Source of the DNA: a virus | Lineage: Duplodnaviria; Heunggongvirae; Uroviricota; Caudoviricetes | Direction: 5' to 3' (one strand) | Virus record (IMG/VR): IMGVR_UViG_2579778652_000012 | Span: 1-34,410 of that record | Length of the DNA: 34,410 bases | Part shown: positions 10,978-34,280 of the stretch, piece after piece | Layout of the letters: each line of letters opens with the position of its first letter | Numbering within the stretch: position 1 is the stretch's first letter | The notes under the pieces: model-generated | The model's input: the letters and a program-made list of their open reading frames with translations, nothing else | What the model was told of the DNA's origin: nothing | Databases searched by the model: none | Made by a program: the position numbers and the translations under genes

Positions 10978-10994
10978 AATGCTCTAATAAATTT
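10978..10994 (+). promoter_or_regulatory. C1-repressor operator-like 17-mer upstream of c4-icd-ant
   Basis: AATGCTCTAATAAATTT, one mismatch to the P1 C1 operator consensus ATTGCTCTAATAAATTT (recalled); a weaker second copy follows at about 11008-11024. Confidence 0.5.
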
Positions 10995-11180
10995 GTATTT
11001 TTAAGTCGCGAATGCTATCTTTTCGCATCATATTGACCTTTTAATCGTTCAGGCTTATAGTTCCGCCGTCGTAGCAAATTCTGCGACCGGGTTTAGCAGC
11101 CTGAATACTTACGCGGACAACCGCAGATTTCCGATATTGCGGTATTTTTGTGTCCGTAAACCACGTTACGCCCGAATTAT

Positions 11181-11257
11181 GGTGGGGCGTGATGGGGAGG
11201 CTTCGGCCTGCTGGTTTCGTAAGTGCCAGTCTGCTAACCCCGTCACGTCCTGCCACC
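11181..11257 (+). ncRNA. c4: c4-like antisense repressor RNA (immunity I)
   Basis: 77-nt segment closed by GGTGG...CCACC with an internal UUCG-loop hairpin. It carries TCGTAAG (11218-11224) and CTGCTAA (11231-11237), complementary in antiparallel order to TTAGCAG/CTTACG copies both upstream (11092-11098, 11108-11113) and downstream at the icd RBS (11261-11267, 11289-11295). Confidence 0.5.
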
Positions 11258-11306
11258 TGTTTAGCAGCGGGTCGCAGGTTGTTTATCAACTTACGAGGCC
11301 GTAACT

Positions 11307-11528
11307 ATGGTTAATGCCAATCCTTGCGCACGCCAAGAATTCATCTGGCGTTTCTATTCCTGTAAAAAACACCACTATCACTTCGTTATCGCAGCAACAG
11401 AAGACGAAGCACGCTCTCAATTGCCTGATGGCCCCTGCATTTTTACTGCCCGTTTTTCAACTAACTCGCGCAATTCACTTAGTTACTGGAGCCTCCCCTT
11501 CTCTGCCGACGTTCAGGGGGGTTTATGA
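11307..11528 (+). CDS. icd: Icd-like small protein (interference with cell division), translationally coupled to ant
   Basis: 73-aa ORF immediately after the c4-like RNA; its stop overlaps the ant start (ATGA). Confidence 0.5.
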   Translation: MVNANPCARQEFIWRFYSCKKHHYHFVIAATEDEARSQLPDGPCIFTARFSTNSRNSLSYWSLPFSADVQGGL

Positions 11529-12571
11529 AAACACCTCTCGTCACCCGTAATGAAATAGCCGAAGCGATCGCCTTGCATACTGCCTGTATGCCGACACGGG
11601 AGATCCCCGGCGCAATTGCTAACTATTTCATGATAACCAGACGTTTTTATACCCGAACAGATAAGGCTGTGATCAACAGGCTACTGATAGCCGAGATCAG
11701 GGATTATTTGATTGAACAAGGACGTCTACGTTACGCAACAGTGGCAGCAGAAATGAGAAAGGAGGCACATAGAATGACCGGTAATAATTTAAATGTTGAA
11801 AAACCAGCACCTGTTGCTTCAGCTACGCCAGCACCAGCCGTGAATATTATCCCCAACACCGGAGACACAATCGACAGCCTGACACTGTTAAAGATGGTCA
11901 ATGAGGCACGGAAATTATGTAGCGAAAAACCAGTTCGCAACAATGATTTCATTGCCAGAGTTAAGGATGAGCTTGATGGGGAGGGTTACGAAATCTTCGT
12001 AACCCCTATGGATAAGAAAAAAGGTGGAGCGGATCAGGTAGTTATAGTAATGACATACAAACAAGCCCTGCGCGTTGCTGCTCGCGAATCGAAAGCGGTC
12101 CGCCGTTCGCTGATCGACAAACTGGAAGAATTGCAGCAGGCAAACTCCCCTACCCCATCGATCCCCCAAACATTACCAGAAGCTCTACGCCTGGCTGCCG
12201 AGTTGGCAGAACAGAAAATGCAGTTGGAACAACAGCTGGTGGCCGCAGCCCCTAAAGTCGATTTTGCCGACCGGGTATCAGCGGCTAATGGAATCCTGAT
12301 CGGGAACTTTGCAAAGGTCGTTGGACTTAAGCAAAACGCCCTTTTCTCATGGTTGCGCCAGAACGGCATTCTCATGGCTTTTGGTGCGCGCAAAAACGTA
12401 CCGCGCCAGCAGTACATTAACGCCGGGTATTTCACGGTGAAAGAAGTGGTGCTGGATGATGAAAATGGCTACCAGATACGGCTGACGCCCCAATTAACGG
12501 GTAAAGGCCAGCAGTGGTTAACTCGCAAGCTACTTGATGCTGGTTTGTTAAAACCAGTAGCAATAGGTTAA
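11525..12571 (+). CDS. ant: antirepressor Ant (KilA-C/ANT C-terminal domain)
   Basis: 348-aa ORF; the C-terminal roughly 150 aa (LPEALRLAAELAEQK...APKVDFADRV...GKGQQWL...LLDAG) are paralogous to the KilA C-terminus; position after c4-icd matches P1 immI. Confidence 0.7.
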   Translation: MKTPLVTRNEIAEAIALHTACMPTREIPGAIANYFMITRRFYTRTDKAVINRLLIAEIRDYLIEQGRLRYATVAAEMRKEAHRMTGNNLNVEKPAPVASATPAPAVNIIPNTGDTIDSLTLLKMVNEARKLCSEKPVRNNDFIARVKDELDGEGYEIFVTPMDKKKGGADQVVIVMTYKQALRVAARESKAVRRSLIDKLEELQQANSPTPSIPQTLPEALRLAAELAEQKMQLEQQLVAAAPKVDFADRVSAANGILIGNFAKVVGLKQNALFSWLRQNGILMAFGARKNVPRQQYINAGYFTVKEVVLDDENGYQIRLTPQLTGKGQQWLTRKLLDAGLLKPVAIG

Positions 12572-12734: not shown

Positions 12735-13535
12735 ATGCAACAAACATTCAATGCGGATATGAATATATCAAACCTTCATCAAAATGTCGATCCTTCAACC
12801 ACTCTGCCCGTTATTTGTGGTGTTGAAATTACGACCGACCGCGCTGGCCGTTACAACCTTAATGCTCTACACAGAGCGAGCGGACTCGGTGCCCATAAAG
12901 CGCCAGCTCAATGGCTAAGAACGCTGTCAGCAAAACAGCTCATCGAAGAGCTTGAAAAAGAAACTATGCAGAATTGCATAGTTTCGTTCGAAGGCCGTGG
13001 CGGCGGCACTTTTGCCCATGAATTGCTCGCTGTGGAGTACGCAGGCTGGATTTCTCCCGCGTTTCGGCTGAAGGTAAACCAGACATTTATCGACTATCGA
13101 GCCGGAAGATTACAACCTGCTATTCCGCAGAGTCTCCCTGAAGCTCTCCGTTTGGCTGCCGACCTGGCAGAGCAAAAGCAACGGCTGGAGCAAAAAATGC
13201 TTATGGATGCACCTAAAGTCGAATTCGCCGAACGCGTTGCTACCGCCAGCGGGGTTCTAATCGGCAACTATGCCAAAGTGCTCGGCCTGGGCCAAAACTA
13301 TCTCTTCACCTGGTTGCGTGATAACGGAATTCTGATCGCAACCGGTGAACGCAGGAACGTCCCCAAACAAGAATACATATCCCGTGGGTATTTCACCCTT
13401 AAAGAAACCGTGATCGATACAAGCAATGGAAGCAGGATTTCTTTCACGACTCGTATAACCGGCAAAGGTCAGCAGTGGCTGATGAAGCGATTGCTTGATG
13501 CTGGTGTGCTGGTACCTGTCGCGGCAACGCGCTAA
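12735..13535 (+). CDS. kilA: KilA (KilA-N domain plus ANT-like C-terminal domain)
   Basis: 266-aa ORF; N-terminal KilA-N-like region (...RYNLNALHRASGLGAHKAPAQWLR...GTFAHELLAVEYAGWISPAFRLKV); C-terminus paralogous to Ant. Confidence 0.65.
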   Translation: MQQTFNADMNISNLHQNVDPSTTLPVICGVEITTDRAGRYNLNALHRASGLGAHKAPAQWLRTLSAKQLIEELEKETMQNCIVSFEGRGGGTFAHELLAVEYAGWISPAFRLKVNQTFIDYRAGRLQPAIPQSLPEALRLAADLAEQKQRLEQKMLMDAPKVEFAERVATASGVLIGNYAKVLGLGQNYLFTWLRDNGILIATGERRNVPKQEYISRGYFTLKETVIDTSNGSRISFTTRITGKGQQWLMKRLLDAGVLVPVAATR

Positions 13536-13564: not shown

Positions 13565-14410
13565 ATGCTGGCTAAAGTCACTTTCCTGAGCTGTATAACG
13601 ATGAGCGATTTTACTTTTTCTGGCTATGAATTGGCCTGCTTTGTAACACACTCCGGTCTATCCCGTAGCGCCGGGCATATCCTGTCGCAATGTGCAAATC
13701 TTGCGGCAACAACCAGTGAATACTTCATTCACAAGCCTCACCGCATGATCGCGGCAGAAACTGGTTATAGCCAATCAACCGTCGTTCGTGCATTCCGTGA
13801 AGCTGTAAACAAAGGAATCCTGACGGTAGAGATTGTTATCGGCGATCACCGTGAACGTCGCGCTAACCTGTACCGGTTTACACCATCCTTTTTGGCCTTC
13901 GCACAACAAGCCAAAAATGCGCTGATTGAAAGCAAATTAAAGATCTCTTCAGCGGCAACCAAAGTTAAAGCGGTTCTCGCTAAGACATTGGCTTTATTTA
14001 ATTTTTTATCCACACCCCCATGTCAAAATGATACCCCCTCCCCCTGTCAGGATGACGTGGCAATAAAGAATAAGAAGTCACAAGTTAAAAAAACAAAAAG
14101 ATCAGTTTCCGGCGGTGCCGGAACGAGCAGACTCAAAAAATTGACTTCATGGATCGCTGAGGCAAAAGCAAAGGCTGACAATCTGCGGTTATCCAAAAAA
14201 CGCGCTCAAAAACATGAGTTCAAGCAGAAAGTAGAGGCGGCAGCGCGGAAATATACTTACCTGAAGAACAAGCGTTCTCCTGATATTGGCGGGATATCAA
14301 ACTTCGATAATCTGCCGCATTGCATGACGGTAAACGAAGCTCTTAATGCGGTTTTAGCCAAAAATAAAGATAACGAACAATGGGGTATACCGGCAGGATT
14401 CAGAGGGTAA
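13565..14410 (+). CDS. repL: lytic replication protein RepL-like
   Basis: 281-aa ORF directly after kilA, as in P1. The start codon lies within a hairpin (ccagcat-tgta-atgctgg); an alternative ATG at 13601 is possible. Confidence 0.5.
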   Translation: MLAKVTFLSCITMSDFTFSGYELACFVTHSGLSRSAGHILSQCANLAATTSEYFIHKPHRMIAAETGYSQSTVVRAFREAVNKGILTVEIVIGDHRERRANLYRFTPSFLAFAQQAKNALIESKLKISSAATKVKAVLAKTLALFNFLSTPPCQNDTPSPCQDDVAIKNKKSQVKKTKRSVSGGAGTSRLKKLTSWIAEAKAKADNLRLSKKRAQKHEFKQKVEAAARKYTYLKNKRSPDIGGISNFDNLPHCMTVNEALNAVLAKNKDNEQWGIPAGFRG

Positions 14411-34126: not shown

Positions 34127-34202
34127 GATGGTGTAGCTCAGCGGTTAGAGCGGTTGACTGTTAATCAACGGGTCGATGGTTCAAATCCATCCACCATCGC
34201 CA
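34127..34202 (+). tRNA. tRNA-Asn (anticodon GTT)
   Basis: Manual cloverleaf: acceptor GATGGTG/CACCATC, D-arm GCTC-AGCGGTTAG-AGC, anticodon arm GTTGA-CTGTTAA-TCAAC (GTT), T-arm GATGG-TTCAAAT-CCATC, discriminator G, encoded CCA. Confidence 0.85.
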
Positions 34203-34204
34203 AT

Positions 34205-34280
34205 GCCGGTTTAGCTCAGTTGGTAGAGCGCCTGCCTTGTAAGCAGGATGTCAGCGGTTCGAGTCCGTTAATCGGCACCA
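34205..34280 (+). tRNA. tRNA-Thr (anticodon TGT)
   Basis: Manual cloverleaf: acceptor GCCGGTT/AATCGGC (one G-U), D-arm GCTC-AGTTGGTAG-AGC, anticodon arm CCTGC-CTTGTAA-GCAGG (TGT), T-arm AGCGG-TTCGAGT-CCGTT, encoded CCA; 2 nt after tRNA-Asn. Confidence 0.85.

What the first reader, a model, noticed from the sequence alone, without database searches (positions are those of the whole stretch)
10978..11528. c4-like antisense RNA with duplicated target boxes flanking it (immunity-I architecture)
A 77-nt segment (11181-11257), closed by GGTGG/CCACC and containing a UUCG hairpin, carries TCGTAAG and CTGCTAA. These are complementary, in the antiparallel order expected for an antisense pairing, to TTAGCAG...CTTACG copies both upstream (11092-11113) and downstream (11261-11295, reaching the icd Shine-Dalgarno). 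This reproduces the P1 c4 logic: self-processed antisense RNA, a1/b1 decoy sites upstream, and a'/b' sites masking the icd RBS to control the coupled antirepressor. The minus-strand ORF 11041-11289 overlapping this region is most likely non-coding.
Basis: partly seen in the sequence, partly recalled or inferred. Interest (0 to 1): 0.5.

Follow-up and report, generated by a model that had tools for sequence, protein, structure and literature searches.

The report
P1-type c4 antisense immunity RNA
This is the well-known c4 antisense RNA switch of phage P1-like plasmids, which keeps the antirepressor gene silent; it is ordinary, except that its recognition boxes differ from those of the two studied phages, P1 and P7.

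Summary
The window is a P1-family phage-plasmid, about 99% identical to SJ46-type plasmids at this locus and about 95% to P1 and P7. Rfam finds C4 antisense RNA (RF01695, 70.8 bits against a cutoff of 45) at 11175-11260. It also finds the c4-a1b1 target motif (RF03163, 56.2 against 46.7) at 11055-11107. The 77-nt segment 11181-11257 aligns base for base with the annotated P1 c4 RNA. The C1 operator, both promoters, a1/b1, a2/b2, icd and ant1/ant2 all sit at the P1 positions. The composite box pattern occurs three times in the window, against 0.02 expected by chance. In 113 related loci the three copies of each box always change together, giving two "a" alleles and six "b" alleles. The window carries the P7 "a" allele and a "b" allele (ACTTACG) found in neither P1 nor P7, so it is predicted to be heteroimmune to both. 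The overlapping ORFs are not conserved. Processing is by host RNase P, not self-cleavage. The "decoy" role of a1/b1 is only a published hypothesis. The closing helix is in a register 3 nt away from GGTGG/CCACC. This is a known system and of low interest.

The parts
10978..10994 (+). C1 repressor operator Oc4 (formerly Op51), AATGCTCTAATAAATTT
   Evidence: Identical to the annotated P1 operator at L001 1579-1595.
10993..11021 (+). Promoter P2c4 (formerly P51a), overlapping the operator
   Evidence: Assigned by position from the P1 annotation, L001 1594-1622; the sequence is identical in the window, P1 and P7.
11033..11061 (+). Promoter P1c4 (formerly P51b): TTGACC, 17-nt spacer, TATAGT
   Evidence: P1 annotation L001 1634-1662. 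It is the only sigma-70-like site found by the scan of 10900-11600, matching 10 of 12 positions.
11055..11107 (+). c4-a1b1 structured leader motif: two hairpins, with a1 in the loop of the second
   Evidence: Rfam RF03163, 56.2 bits against a gathering score of 46.7, E = 8.5e-12. The hairpins are reproduced by the fold.
11093..11099 (+). a1 box, TTAGCAG (P7-type allele)
   Evidence: Aligns with P1 a1 at L001 1694-1700. Complementary to a' over 7 nt.
11107..11113 (+). b1 box, ACTTACG (an allele found in neither P1 nor P7)
   Evidence: Aligns with P1 b1 at L001 1708-1715. Complementary to b' over 7 nt.
11181..11257 (+). c4 antisense RNA, mature 77-nt form
   Evidence: Rfam RF01695, 70.8 bits against 45, at 11175-11260. 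Aligns without gaps to the P1 misc_RNA c4 at L001 1782-1858. MFE -45.7 kcal/mol, z = -5.2.
11215..11224 (+). b' loop, UUUCGUAAGU (core CGUAAGU at 11218-11224)
   Evidence: Forms 10 contiguous pairs with b2 plus the SD, two of them G-U. Duplex energy -14.4 kcal/mol.
11231..11237 (+). a' box, CUGCUAA
   Evidence: Forms 7 contiguous pairs with a1 and with a2. Duplex energy with a2 is -9.3 kcal/mol.
11261..11267 (+). a2 box, TTAGCAG
   Evidence: Aligns with P1 a2 at L001 1862-1868.
11289..11298 (+). b2 box ACTTACG fused to the icd Shine-Dalgarno GAGG
   Evidence: Aligns with P1 b2 at L001 1891-1898. The icd ATG lies 8 nt downstream.
11307..11528 (+). icd, 73 aa, cell-division inhibitor and translational coupler for ant
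   Evidence: 96% identical to P1 Icd. Its stop codon overlaps the ant1 start in ATGA at 11525-11528.
11525..12571 (+). ant1, 348 aa antirepressor; ant2 is the in-frame internal start at 11774
   Evidence: 99% identical to P7 Ant1 and 90% to P1 Ant1. Pfam ANT/KilAC domain, E = 6e-31. The ant2 start is placed by analogy with P1 ant2, with AGGAGG at 11760-11765.

Best explanation
This is the immunity-I (immI) module of a P1-family phage-plasmid.

Transcription starts at two promoters, one of which overlaps a C1 operator. It produces a single leader-c4-icd-ant precursor RNA. Host RNase P cuts the 5' end of the tRNA-like c4 domain, and a stable 77-nt RNA results (11181-11257). Its two exposed boxes are a' (CUGCUAA) and b' (UUUCGUAAGU). 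They pair in trans with a2 (11261-11267) and with b2 plus the Shine-Dalgarno (11289-11298) on the same kind of transcript, and this blocks ribosome entry at icd.

The icd stop overlaps the ant1 start (ATGA), so ant depends on icd translation. Blocking icd therefore silences the Ant1/Ant2 antirepressor and keeps C1 repression, and hence lysogeny, intact. It also represses the ant of a superinfecting phage carrying the same boxes.

The upstream a1/b1 copies, held in a two-hairpin leader, are a second binding site for c4. They most likely modulate how much free c4 reaches a2/b2.

This element carries the P7 allele of the a box and a b allele (ACTTACG/CGUAAGU) present in neither P1 nor P7. Its c4 should therefore not silence P1 or P7 ant, and theirs should not silence this one.

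Shown here: the sequence homology, the structure, the box complementarity and its covariation, and the gene order.
Inferred from work on P1 and P7: transcription, RNase P processing, translational block and coupling.
Predicted only: heteroimmunity.
For: - Rfam C4 scores 70.8 bits (gathering score 45) and c4-a1b1 scores 56.2 bits (gathering score 46.7).
- The alignment to the curated P1 and P7 c4 is gap-free, and every annotated immI feature sits at the corresponding position.
- The 77-mer fold has z = -5.2.
- The box pattern occurs 3 times against 0.02 expected.
- In 113 P1-like loci there are 2 a alleles and 6 b alleles, with 11 of the 12 possible combinations seen. All three copies of each box agree in every locus.
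- Two more distant loci, L065 and L107, carry yet other box sets that are also self-consistent.
- Sequence variation between 11064 and 11310 is concentrated in the boxes, while the c4 stems are invariant.
- Cognate b':b2 duplexes are -14.4 to -15.3 kcal/mol and non-cognate ones -4.2 to -10.3. The window's b boxes against those of P1 or P7 give -4.2 to -5.0, in both directions.
- Icd is 96% identical to P1 Icd and Ant1 is 99% identical to P7 Ant1. The icd/ant1 overlap is ATGA.
- Literature: RNase P processing to 77 +/- 1 nt, b' occluding the ribosome-binding site, and a 4-nt P1/P7 difference being enough to prevent cross-reaction (PMC5320573). c4 is needed for full repression of ant (PMC8198154).
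Against: There are no expression, processing or immunity data for this element; everything functional is transferred from P1 and P7. The c4 stems do not vary in the sample, so this data set gives no covariation support for the fold, which rests on the Rfam model. 25 nt of c4 (11194-11218) were the search anchor and are invariant by construction. A second, independent anchor did return essentially the same population, however. The MFE fold of the unprocessed precursor does not contain the c4 fold; it pairs a1/b1 with a'/b' in cis. The precursor's behaviour is therefore not settled by thermodynamic prediction.
Confidence: 0.9

Rival explanations
1. The region encodes a small protein, and the RNA features are incidental. 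Candidates are the minus-strand 82-aa ORF 11041-11289 and the plus-strand 54/55-aa ORFs 11137-11304 and 11150-11314. The plus-strand ORFs correspond to the reading that was historically annotated as a 'c4 protein'.
For: These ORFs exist in the window. An old P1 GenBank entry, X15639, annotates c4 as a CDS.
Against: The minus-strand ORF is intact in 13 of 91 unique haplotypes and each plus-strand ORF in 14 of 91. The rest carry frameshifts or stop codons. Variable columns are not enriched at third codon positions: 32, 42 and 38 at positions 1, 2 and 3. There are no Pfam hits. The current P1 and P7 annotations list c4 as an RNA.
Confidence: 0.02
2. The a1/b1 boxes are not a trans-acting decoy. 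They act in cis, pairing with a'/b' inside the unprocessed precursor. This would keep c4 inactive, or guide its folding and processing, until RNase P releases it.
For: The MFE structure of the 253-nt precursor 11068-11320 pairs a1 with a' and b1 with b' intramolecularly (-105.2 kcal/mol, z = -5.1). a1/b1 covary with a'/b' as strictly as a2/b2 do, so pairing is under selection, but covariation cannot tell cis from trans. The a':a1 duplex can extend further than a':a2 (-13.8 against -9.3 kcal/mol).
Against: That MFE structure has an ensemble frequency of only 0.002. The Rfam c4-a1b1 motif supports local hairpins that present a1 in a loop, the kind of conserved local structure Weinberg et al. note for other antisense-RNA targets. 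The only published proposal found here is competition between a1/b1 and a2/b2 for c4.
Confidence: 0.3
3. The locus is an inactive relic in a defective plasmid prophage. The sequence is retained but no longer controls lysogeny.
For: Many P1-like plasmids are rearranged or defective in the immI region (PMC6906374). No functional data exist for this element.
Against: Operator, promoters, c4, all six boxes, icd, ant1/ant2, kilA and repL are intact and collinear with P1. The boxes are perfectly concordant. Five independent contigs are identical to the window from the operator to the icd start (10978-11310), and 11 are identical over 11055-11310, one of them matching phage SJ46 in length.
Confidence: 0.05

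Closest known systems
Phage P7 c4 / immI operon (AF503408, c4 at 51057-51133)
   Same: The c4 stems, tetraloop and a' box (CUGCUAA, targets TTAGCAG) are identical. Ant1 is 99% identical. Operator, promoters, spacing and gene order are the same.
   Different: The b' box is CGUAAGU here and ACAAUC-type in P7, with b1/b2 ACTTACG against GATTGTG; this is 4 changed positions in each of the three copies. There is a 1-nt deletion and a few substitutions in the a2-b2 spacer. Upstream of the operator the window carries the P1-type sim genes, not the P7 upf50 genes.
Phage P1 c4 / immI operon (NC_005856, c4 at 48343-48419)
   Same: The c4 scaffold is 77 nt in both, and every annotated immI feature aligns. 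Icd is 96% identical. simA/B/C lie upstream, with SimC 95% identical.
   Different: Both boxes differ: a' is CUGUCAA in P1 and CUGCUAA here, and b1/b2 are GTTAGTG in P1 and ACTTACG here. Ant1 is only 90% identical, with a divergent central segment.
Salmonella phage SJ46 and SJ46-like phage-plasmids (KU760857 / NC_031129; many E. coli, E. fergusonii and Shigella plasmids)
   Same: 99.4% identical over 10980-11600. The contig whose length matches SJ46 (L081) is identical to the window over 11055-11310 and has the same a and b alleles. 66 PLSDB plasmids are at least 99% identical.
   Different: The SJ46 match stops at the operator, so the sequence upstream differs. In the SJ46 record only the antirepressor gene is annotated under the match; no c4 feature is listed there.
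Rfam families C4 (RF01695) and c4-a1b1 (RF03163), Weinberg et al. 2010
   Same: Both models match above their gathering scores over their full length.
   Different: Nothing structural. The family is broad, spanning Proteobacteria and phages, and many members sit in other gene contexts.

Membership tests
C4 antisense RNA (Rfam RF01695) | Covariance-model score at or above the curated gathering score, over the full model | tested here: met
   70.8 bits against 45, model positions 1-87 of 87, E = 4.7e-12.
C4 antisense RNA (Rfam RF01695) | Long closing stem enclosing a tetraloop hairpin (P2) and a second hairpin whose loop is b', with a' single-stranded between P3 and the 3' half of P1 | tested here: met
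   The MFE and centroid folds of 11181-11257 give exactly this architecture, with a UUCG tetraloop. It agrees with the Rfam structure line.
P1/P7 immI c4 system | a' and b' complementary to a2/b2 immediately downstream, with b2 overlapping the ribosome-binding site of the first downstream gene | tested here: met
   7 pairs for a':a2 and 10 pairs for b':b2 plus the GAGG SD. The pattern is far above chance.
P1/P7 immI c4 system | A second a1/b1 target set upstream of c4 on the same transcript, within the c4-a1b1 motif | tested here: met
   RF03163 at 56.2 bits against 46.7. a1 is at 11093-11099 and b1 at 11107-11113, each complementary to c4 over 7 nt.
P1/P7 immI c4 system | Operon context: C1 operator and tandem promoters upstream; icd translationally coupled to ant1/ant2 downstream | tested here: met
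   Operator and promoters are identical to P1. Icd is 96% identical to P1 Icd, Ant1 is 99% identical to P7 Ant1, and the genes overlap in ATGA.
P1/P7 immI c4 system | Complementarity maintained by compensatory change among relatives | tested here: met
   113 of 113 loci are concordant across 2 a alleles and 6 b alleles. L065, L107, L126 and L127 are also concordant.
P1/P7 immI c4 system | Processed from the precursor to a stable RNA of about 77 nt by host RNase P | not testable with these tools
   Only the sequence requirements can be checked. The 5' GGU at the cleavage site and the acceptor-like stem with a 3' ACC overhang are identical to P1 and P7.
P1/P7 immI c4 system | Represses ant in trans and confers superinfection immunity | not testable with these tools
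   This needs genetics; see the decisive next steps.
P1 immunity-specificity group (homoimmune with P1 at immI) | a and b boxes identical to those of P1 | tested here: not met
   The a box differs at 2 positions and the b box at 5 of 7. The cross-duplex between the b boxes is -4.2 kcal/mol, against -14.4 for the cognate pair.
P7 immunity-specificity group (homoimmune with P7 at immI) | a and b boxes identical to those of P7 | tested here: not met
   The a box is identical, but the b box differs at 4 of 7 positions in b1, b' and b2. Cross-duplexes are -4.2 to -5.0 kcal/mol.

The most novel reading that the evidence does not exclude
P1-like phage-plasmids may carry a combinatorial RNA 'immunity barcode'. 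There are at least two a-box and six b-box alleles, with more in distant relatives. They assort almost freely (11 of 12 combinations seen), although each allele must be written identically at three separate sites (leader, c4, icd RBS) only 6-21 nt from the other box. This window carries one of the alleles not represented by P1 or P7. If this has not been described already, it implies many natural immI heteroimmunity groups. It also poses a question: how do three-site concerted switches arise so often, when a recombinant of two existing types would need three crossovers within very short conserved intervals, or viable mismatched intermediates?
Probability: 0.3. Interest if true: 0.4.

Novelty: already known. 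Interest (0 to 1): 0.18.

Why it matters
The immI system of P1 and P7 is a classic, already well-described example of a trans-acting antisense RNA controlling a phage antirepressor. Finding it in a P1-like plasmid adds nothing conceptually. Its practical value is for annotation. c4 and its targets go unannotated in the SJ46 record and in most of the phage and plasmid records listed, which name only protein-coding genes under the match. The overlapping ORFs should not be called as genes. The one modestly useful point is that the box alleles give a sequence-readable predictor of which P1-like phage-plasmids should be mutually immune at immI. This bears on co-residence and superinfection among plasmids of this family, some of which carry resistance genes.

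Tried and rejected
- **Chance complementarity:** rejected. The pattern occurs 3 times against 0.02 expected.
- **Coding ORFs on either strand:** rejected by their lack of conservation and the absence of Pfam hits.
- **First box-extraction regex:** it read b2 out of register and was replaced.
- **Genome-contig scan:** only 3 loci. One is a 2.9-kb contig of a MAG labelled Bacillota, most likely a binning contaminant.
- **Second viral-contig scan with an icd-start anchor independent of c4:** done to test for anchor bias. It returned essentially the same loci plus 4 new ones. The two complete new loci differ only by UUCG to CUCG in the tetraloop, and their boxes are concordant.
- **Primary papers:** not held in the library. 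These were Citron & Schuster 1992, Lobocka et al. 2004 and Gilcrease & Casjens 2018. I therefore could not establish whether the multi-allelic box diversity has already been published. Full-text searches for it found nothing relevant.
- **Covariation of the c4 helices within the P1-like sample:** not informative, because the stems do not vary.

Full report
**What is in the sequence**

- The 77-nt segment 11181-11257 begins with GGTGG and ends with CCACC. It contains a UUCG tetraloop (11202-11205).
- It carries TCGTAAG (11217-11223) and CTGCTAA (11231-11237).
- The complementary pair TTAGCAG...CTTACG lies upstream at 11093-11113 and downstream at 11261-11295.
- The downstream copy runs straight into GAGG (11295-11298), 8 nt before the ATG of a 73-codon ORF at 11307.

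The composite pattern TTAGCAG-N(5-30)-CTTACG occurs three times in the 34.4-kb window, twice on the + strand and once on the - strand (the c4 boxes). Shuffles give 0.02 expected, and no shuffle reaches three. The 77-mer folds to -45.7 kcal/mol, 5.2 standard deviations better than dinucleotide shuffles. The fold has a long closing stem, a UUCG hairpin, and a second hairpin whose loop holds the b' box, with the a' box single-stranded.

**What it is**

A scan of the whole window against Rfam at curated thresholds gives four hits. Two are tRNAs at the far end. The other two are:

- C4 antisense RNA (RF01695) at 11175-11260 on the + strand, 70.8 bits against a gathering score of 45;
- 'a1, b1 targets of C4 antisense RNA' (RF03163) at 11055-11107 on the + strand, 56.2 bits against 46.7.

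The window is a P1-family phage-plasmid. Region 10900-11600 is 94.6% identical to phage P1, 95.5% to P7 and 99.4% to Salmonella phage SJ46. It matches 601 PLSDB plasmids, mostly from E. coli, 66 of them at 99% or better.

Aligned with the curated P1 and P7 records, the 77-mer coincides base for base with the annotated c4 RNA (P1 48343-48419). Every other annotated immI feature maps as follows.

| Feature | Window coordinates |
|---|---|
| C1 operator Oc4/Op51 (identical sequence) | 10978-10994 |
| Promoter P2c4/P51a | 10993-11021 |
| Promoter P1c4/P51b (TTGACC-17-TATAGT) | 11033-11061 |
| a1 | 11093-11099 |
| b1 | 11107-11113 |
| a2 | 11261-11267 |
| b2 plus SD | 11289-11298 |
| icd | 11307-11528 |
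| ant1 | 11525-12571 |
| ant2 (internal start) | from 11774 |
| kilA | 12735-13535 |
| repL | 13565-14410 |

P1c4/P51b is the only promoter-like site found by the scan of 10900-11600. Icd is 96% identical to P1 Icd. Ant1 is 99% identical to P7 Ant1 and 90% to P1 Ant1, and carries the Pfam ANT/KilAC domain. The icd stop and the ant1 start overlap in ATGA (11525-11528), the arrangement expected for translational coupling.

**Test of the antisense logic across relatives**

Using a 25-nt anchor in the c4 core (window 11194-11218) I collected loci from IMG/VR and GTDB. I extracted the six boxes from 113 parsable loci, counting the window, P1 and P7 among them.

There are two 'a' alleles: TTGACAG as in P1, and TTAGCAG as in P7 and the window.

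There are six 'b' alleles:

- GTTAGTG (P1)
- GATTGTG (P7)
- ACTTACG (the window)
- ACGAATG
- GTACATG
- ACTTGTG

Eleven of the twelve possible a x b combinations are seen. In every one of the 113 loci, a1, a' and a2 agree with each other, and so do b1, b' and b2. That gives 7 contiguous pairs for a':a1, a':a2 and b':b1, and 10-11 for b':b2 plus the SD. Two more divergent loci, L065 and L107, carry still other box sequences, again self-consistent at all three sites.

Each allele class contains several distinct flanking haplotypes, so the classes are not just clonal copies. Between 11064 and 11310, variation is concentrated in the boxes:

- b boxes: mean column entropy 0.96;
- a boxes: 0.27, all of it in two positions;
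- c4 stems: 0.006-0.065.

The anchor forces 25 of the 77 nt to be invariant. However, a second scan with an anchor in the icd start, independent of c4, returned essentially the same population. The only complete new loci differ by one tetraloop base and keep concordant boxes. This is strong comparative evidence that the pairings are under selection.

**This element's allele**

The window has the P7 a allele and the ACTTACG b allele. That combination accounts for 17 of the 113 loci, making it the second most common in the sample. It is the combination carried by the contig whose length matches SJ46 (L081), which is identical to the window over 11055-11310.

Predicted b':b2 duplex energies are -14.4 to -15.3 kcal/mol for cognate pairs and -4.2 to -10.3 for non-cognate pairs. 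The window's b boxes against those of P1 or P7, in either direction, give -4.2 to -5.0. A 4-nt difference between P1 and P7 c4 and their targets is reported to be enough to prevent cross-reaction (Citron & Schuster 1990, as cited in PMC5320573). The window differs from P7 at 4 positions of the b box and from P1 at 5, plus 2 in the a box. I therefore predict that it is heteroimmune to both at immI. This is an inference and was not tested.

**Mechanism**

Shown here: homology, fold, box complementarity and covariation, operon layout.

Transferred from work on P1 and P7:

- Transcription from the C1-controlled promoters yields a leader-c4-icd-ant precursor.
- Host RNase P cuts at the 5' GG of c4 to give a 77 +/- 1 nt RNA (Hartmann et al. 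1995, as cited in PMC5320573 and PMC11143913).
- The b' loop occludes the ribosome-binding site, while a' binds upstream.
- c4 is required for full repression of ant (PMC8198154).

From my own knowledge of the P1 literature, not retrievable here: blocking icd translation also leads to premature transcription termination upstream of ant (Biere, Citron & Schuster 1992).

The role of a1/b1 is unsettled. The published idea is competition with a2/b2 for c4 (Weinberg 2010 supplement, citing Citron & Schuster 1990). The MFE fold of the 253-nt precursor instead pairs a1/b1 with a'/b' in cis, which keeps open a role in folding or autoinhibition. Covariation cannot distinguish the two.

1. 'Self-processed' is wrong. 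Processing is by RNase P.
2. The 'decoy' role is a hypothesis.
3. Both the Rfam consensus and the MFE fold pair G11181 with C11254. This leaves ACC-3' unpaired, like a tRNA acceptor end, rather than pairing GGTGG with CCACC end to end.
4. The locus does not simply reproduce P1. Its recognition boxes are a different allele.

It is intact in only 13 of 91 unique haplotypes. The two plus-strand ORFs over c4 are each intact in 14 of 91. There is no third-position bias among variable columns and no Pfam hit.

**Novelty and verdict**

This is a known system in a known family of elements. It is detected by existing Rfam models and lies in DNA that is 99-100% identical to many public records. I rate it 'already known' and of low interest.

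The only part that might be new is the extent and near-free assortment of box alleles across P1-like phage-plasmids. I could not check this against Gilcrease & Casjens 2018 or Lobocka et al. 2004, because neither is held in the library. Full-text searches found no description of it.

Noticed in passing
window 11093-11298 and loci L001-L128: The box alleles assort almost freely: 2 a alleles x 6 b alleles, with 11 of 12 combinations observed. Yet each allele has to be present at three sites, and the a and b boxes lie only 6-21 nt apart at each site. A recombinant of two types would need three crossovers in very short conserved intervals. How these combinations arise is unexplained.
   Followed up: partly
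window 11215-11224 versus ACTTGTG-type b2 (e.g. L054, L110): Through G-U wobble, this window's b' loop could still form 10 contiguous pairs (-9.6 kcal/mol) with the ACTTGTG-type target. The reverse combination pairs poorly (4 pairs, -6.1 kcal/mol). This suggests a possible one-way cross-immunity between two allele classes.
   Followed up: no
window 11068-11320: The MFE fold of the unprocessed leader-c4-icd precursor does not contain the mature c4 fold. It pairs a1 with a' and b1 with b' in cis. The ensemble frequency is only 0.002, so this is a weak lead.
   Followed up: partly
window about 10978-10980: There is a mosaic junction at the C1 operator. SJ46 and P7 similarity (95.5-99.4%) begins at about 10980. 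To the left, the window carries P1-type simA/simB/simC (9624-10908; SimC 95% identical to P1), where P7 has unrelated upf50 genes.
   Followed up: partly
window 34127-34280: Two adjacent tRNA genes, tRNA-Asn (GTT) and tRNA-Thr (TGT), on the + strand.
   Followed up: no
L004 (JAFAFU010000019.1, 2867 bp): A short contig binned into a MAG labelled 'Bacillota bacterium' carries a c4 locus identical to the window type over the 255 nt examined. This is almost certainly a binning contaminant from an enterobacterial P1-like plasmid.
   Followed up: no
L107 (about 3360-3620) and L065: These are more divergent c4 loci with the same core, different stems and further box alleles. L107 has b = GTTCAAG. L065 has a = TTAGTCG and a longer b' loop. 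In both, the gene downstream of b2 does not begin like icd. The c4 switch is thus attached to other cargo while keeping three-site concordance.
   Followed up: partly
L066 (about 1230-1461): The icd start region appears duplicated, next to a run of N. This is probably an assembly artefact rather than a real tandem duplication.
   Followed up: no
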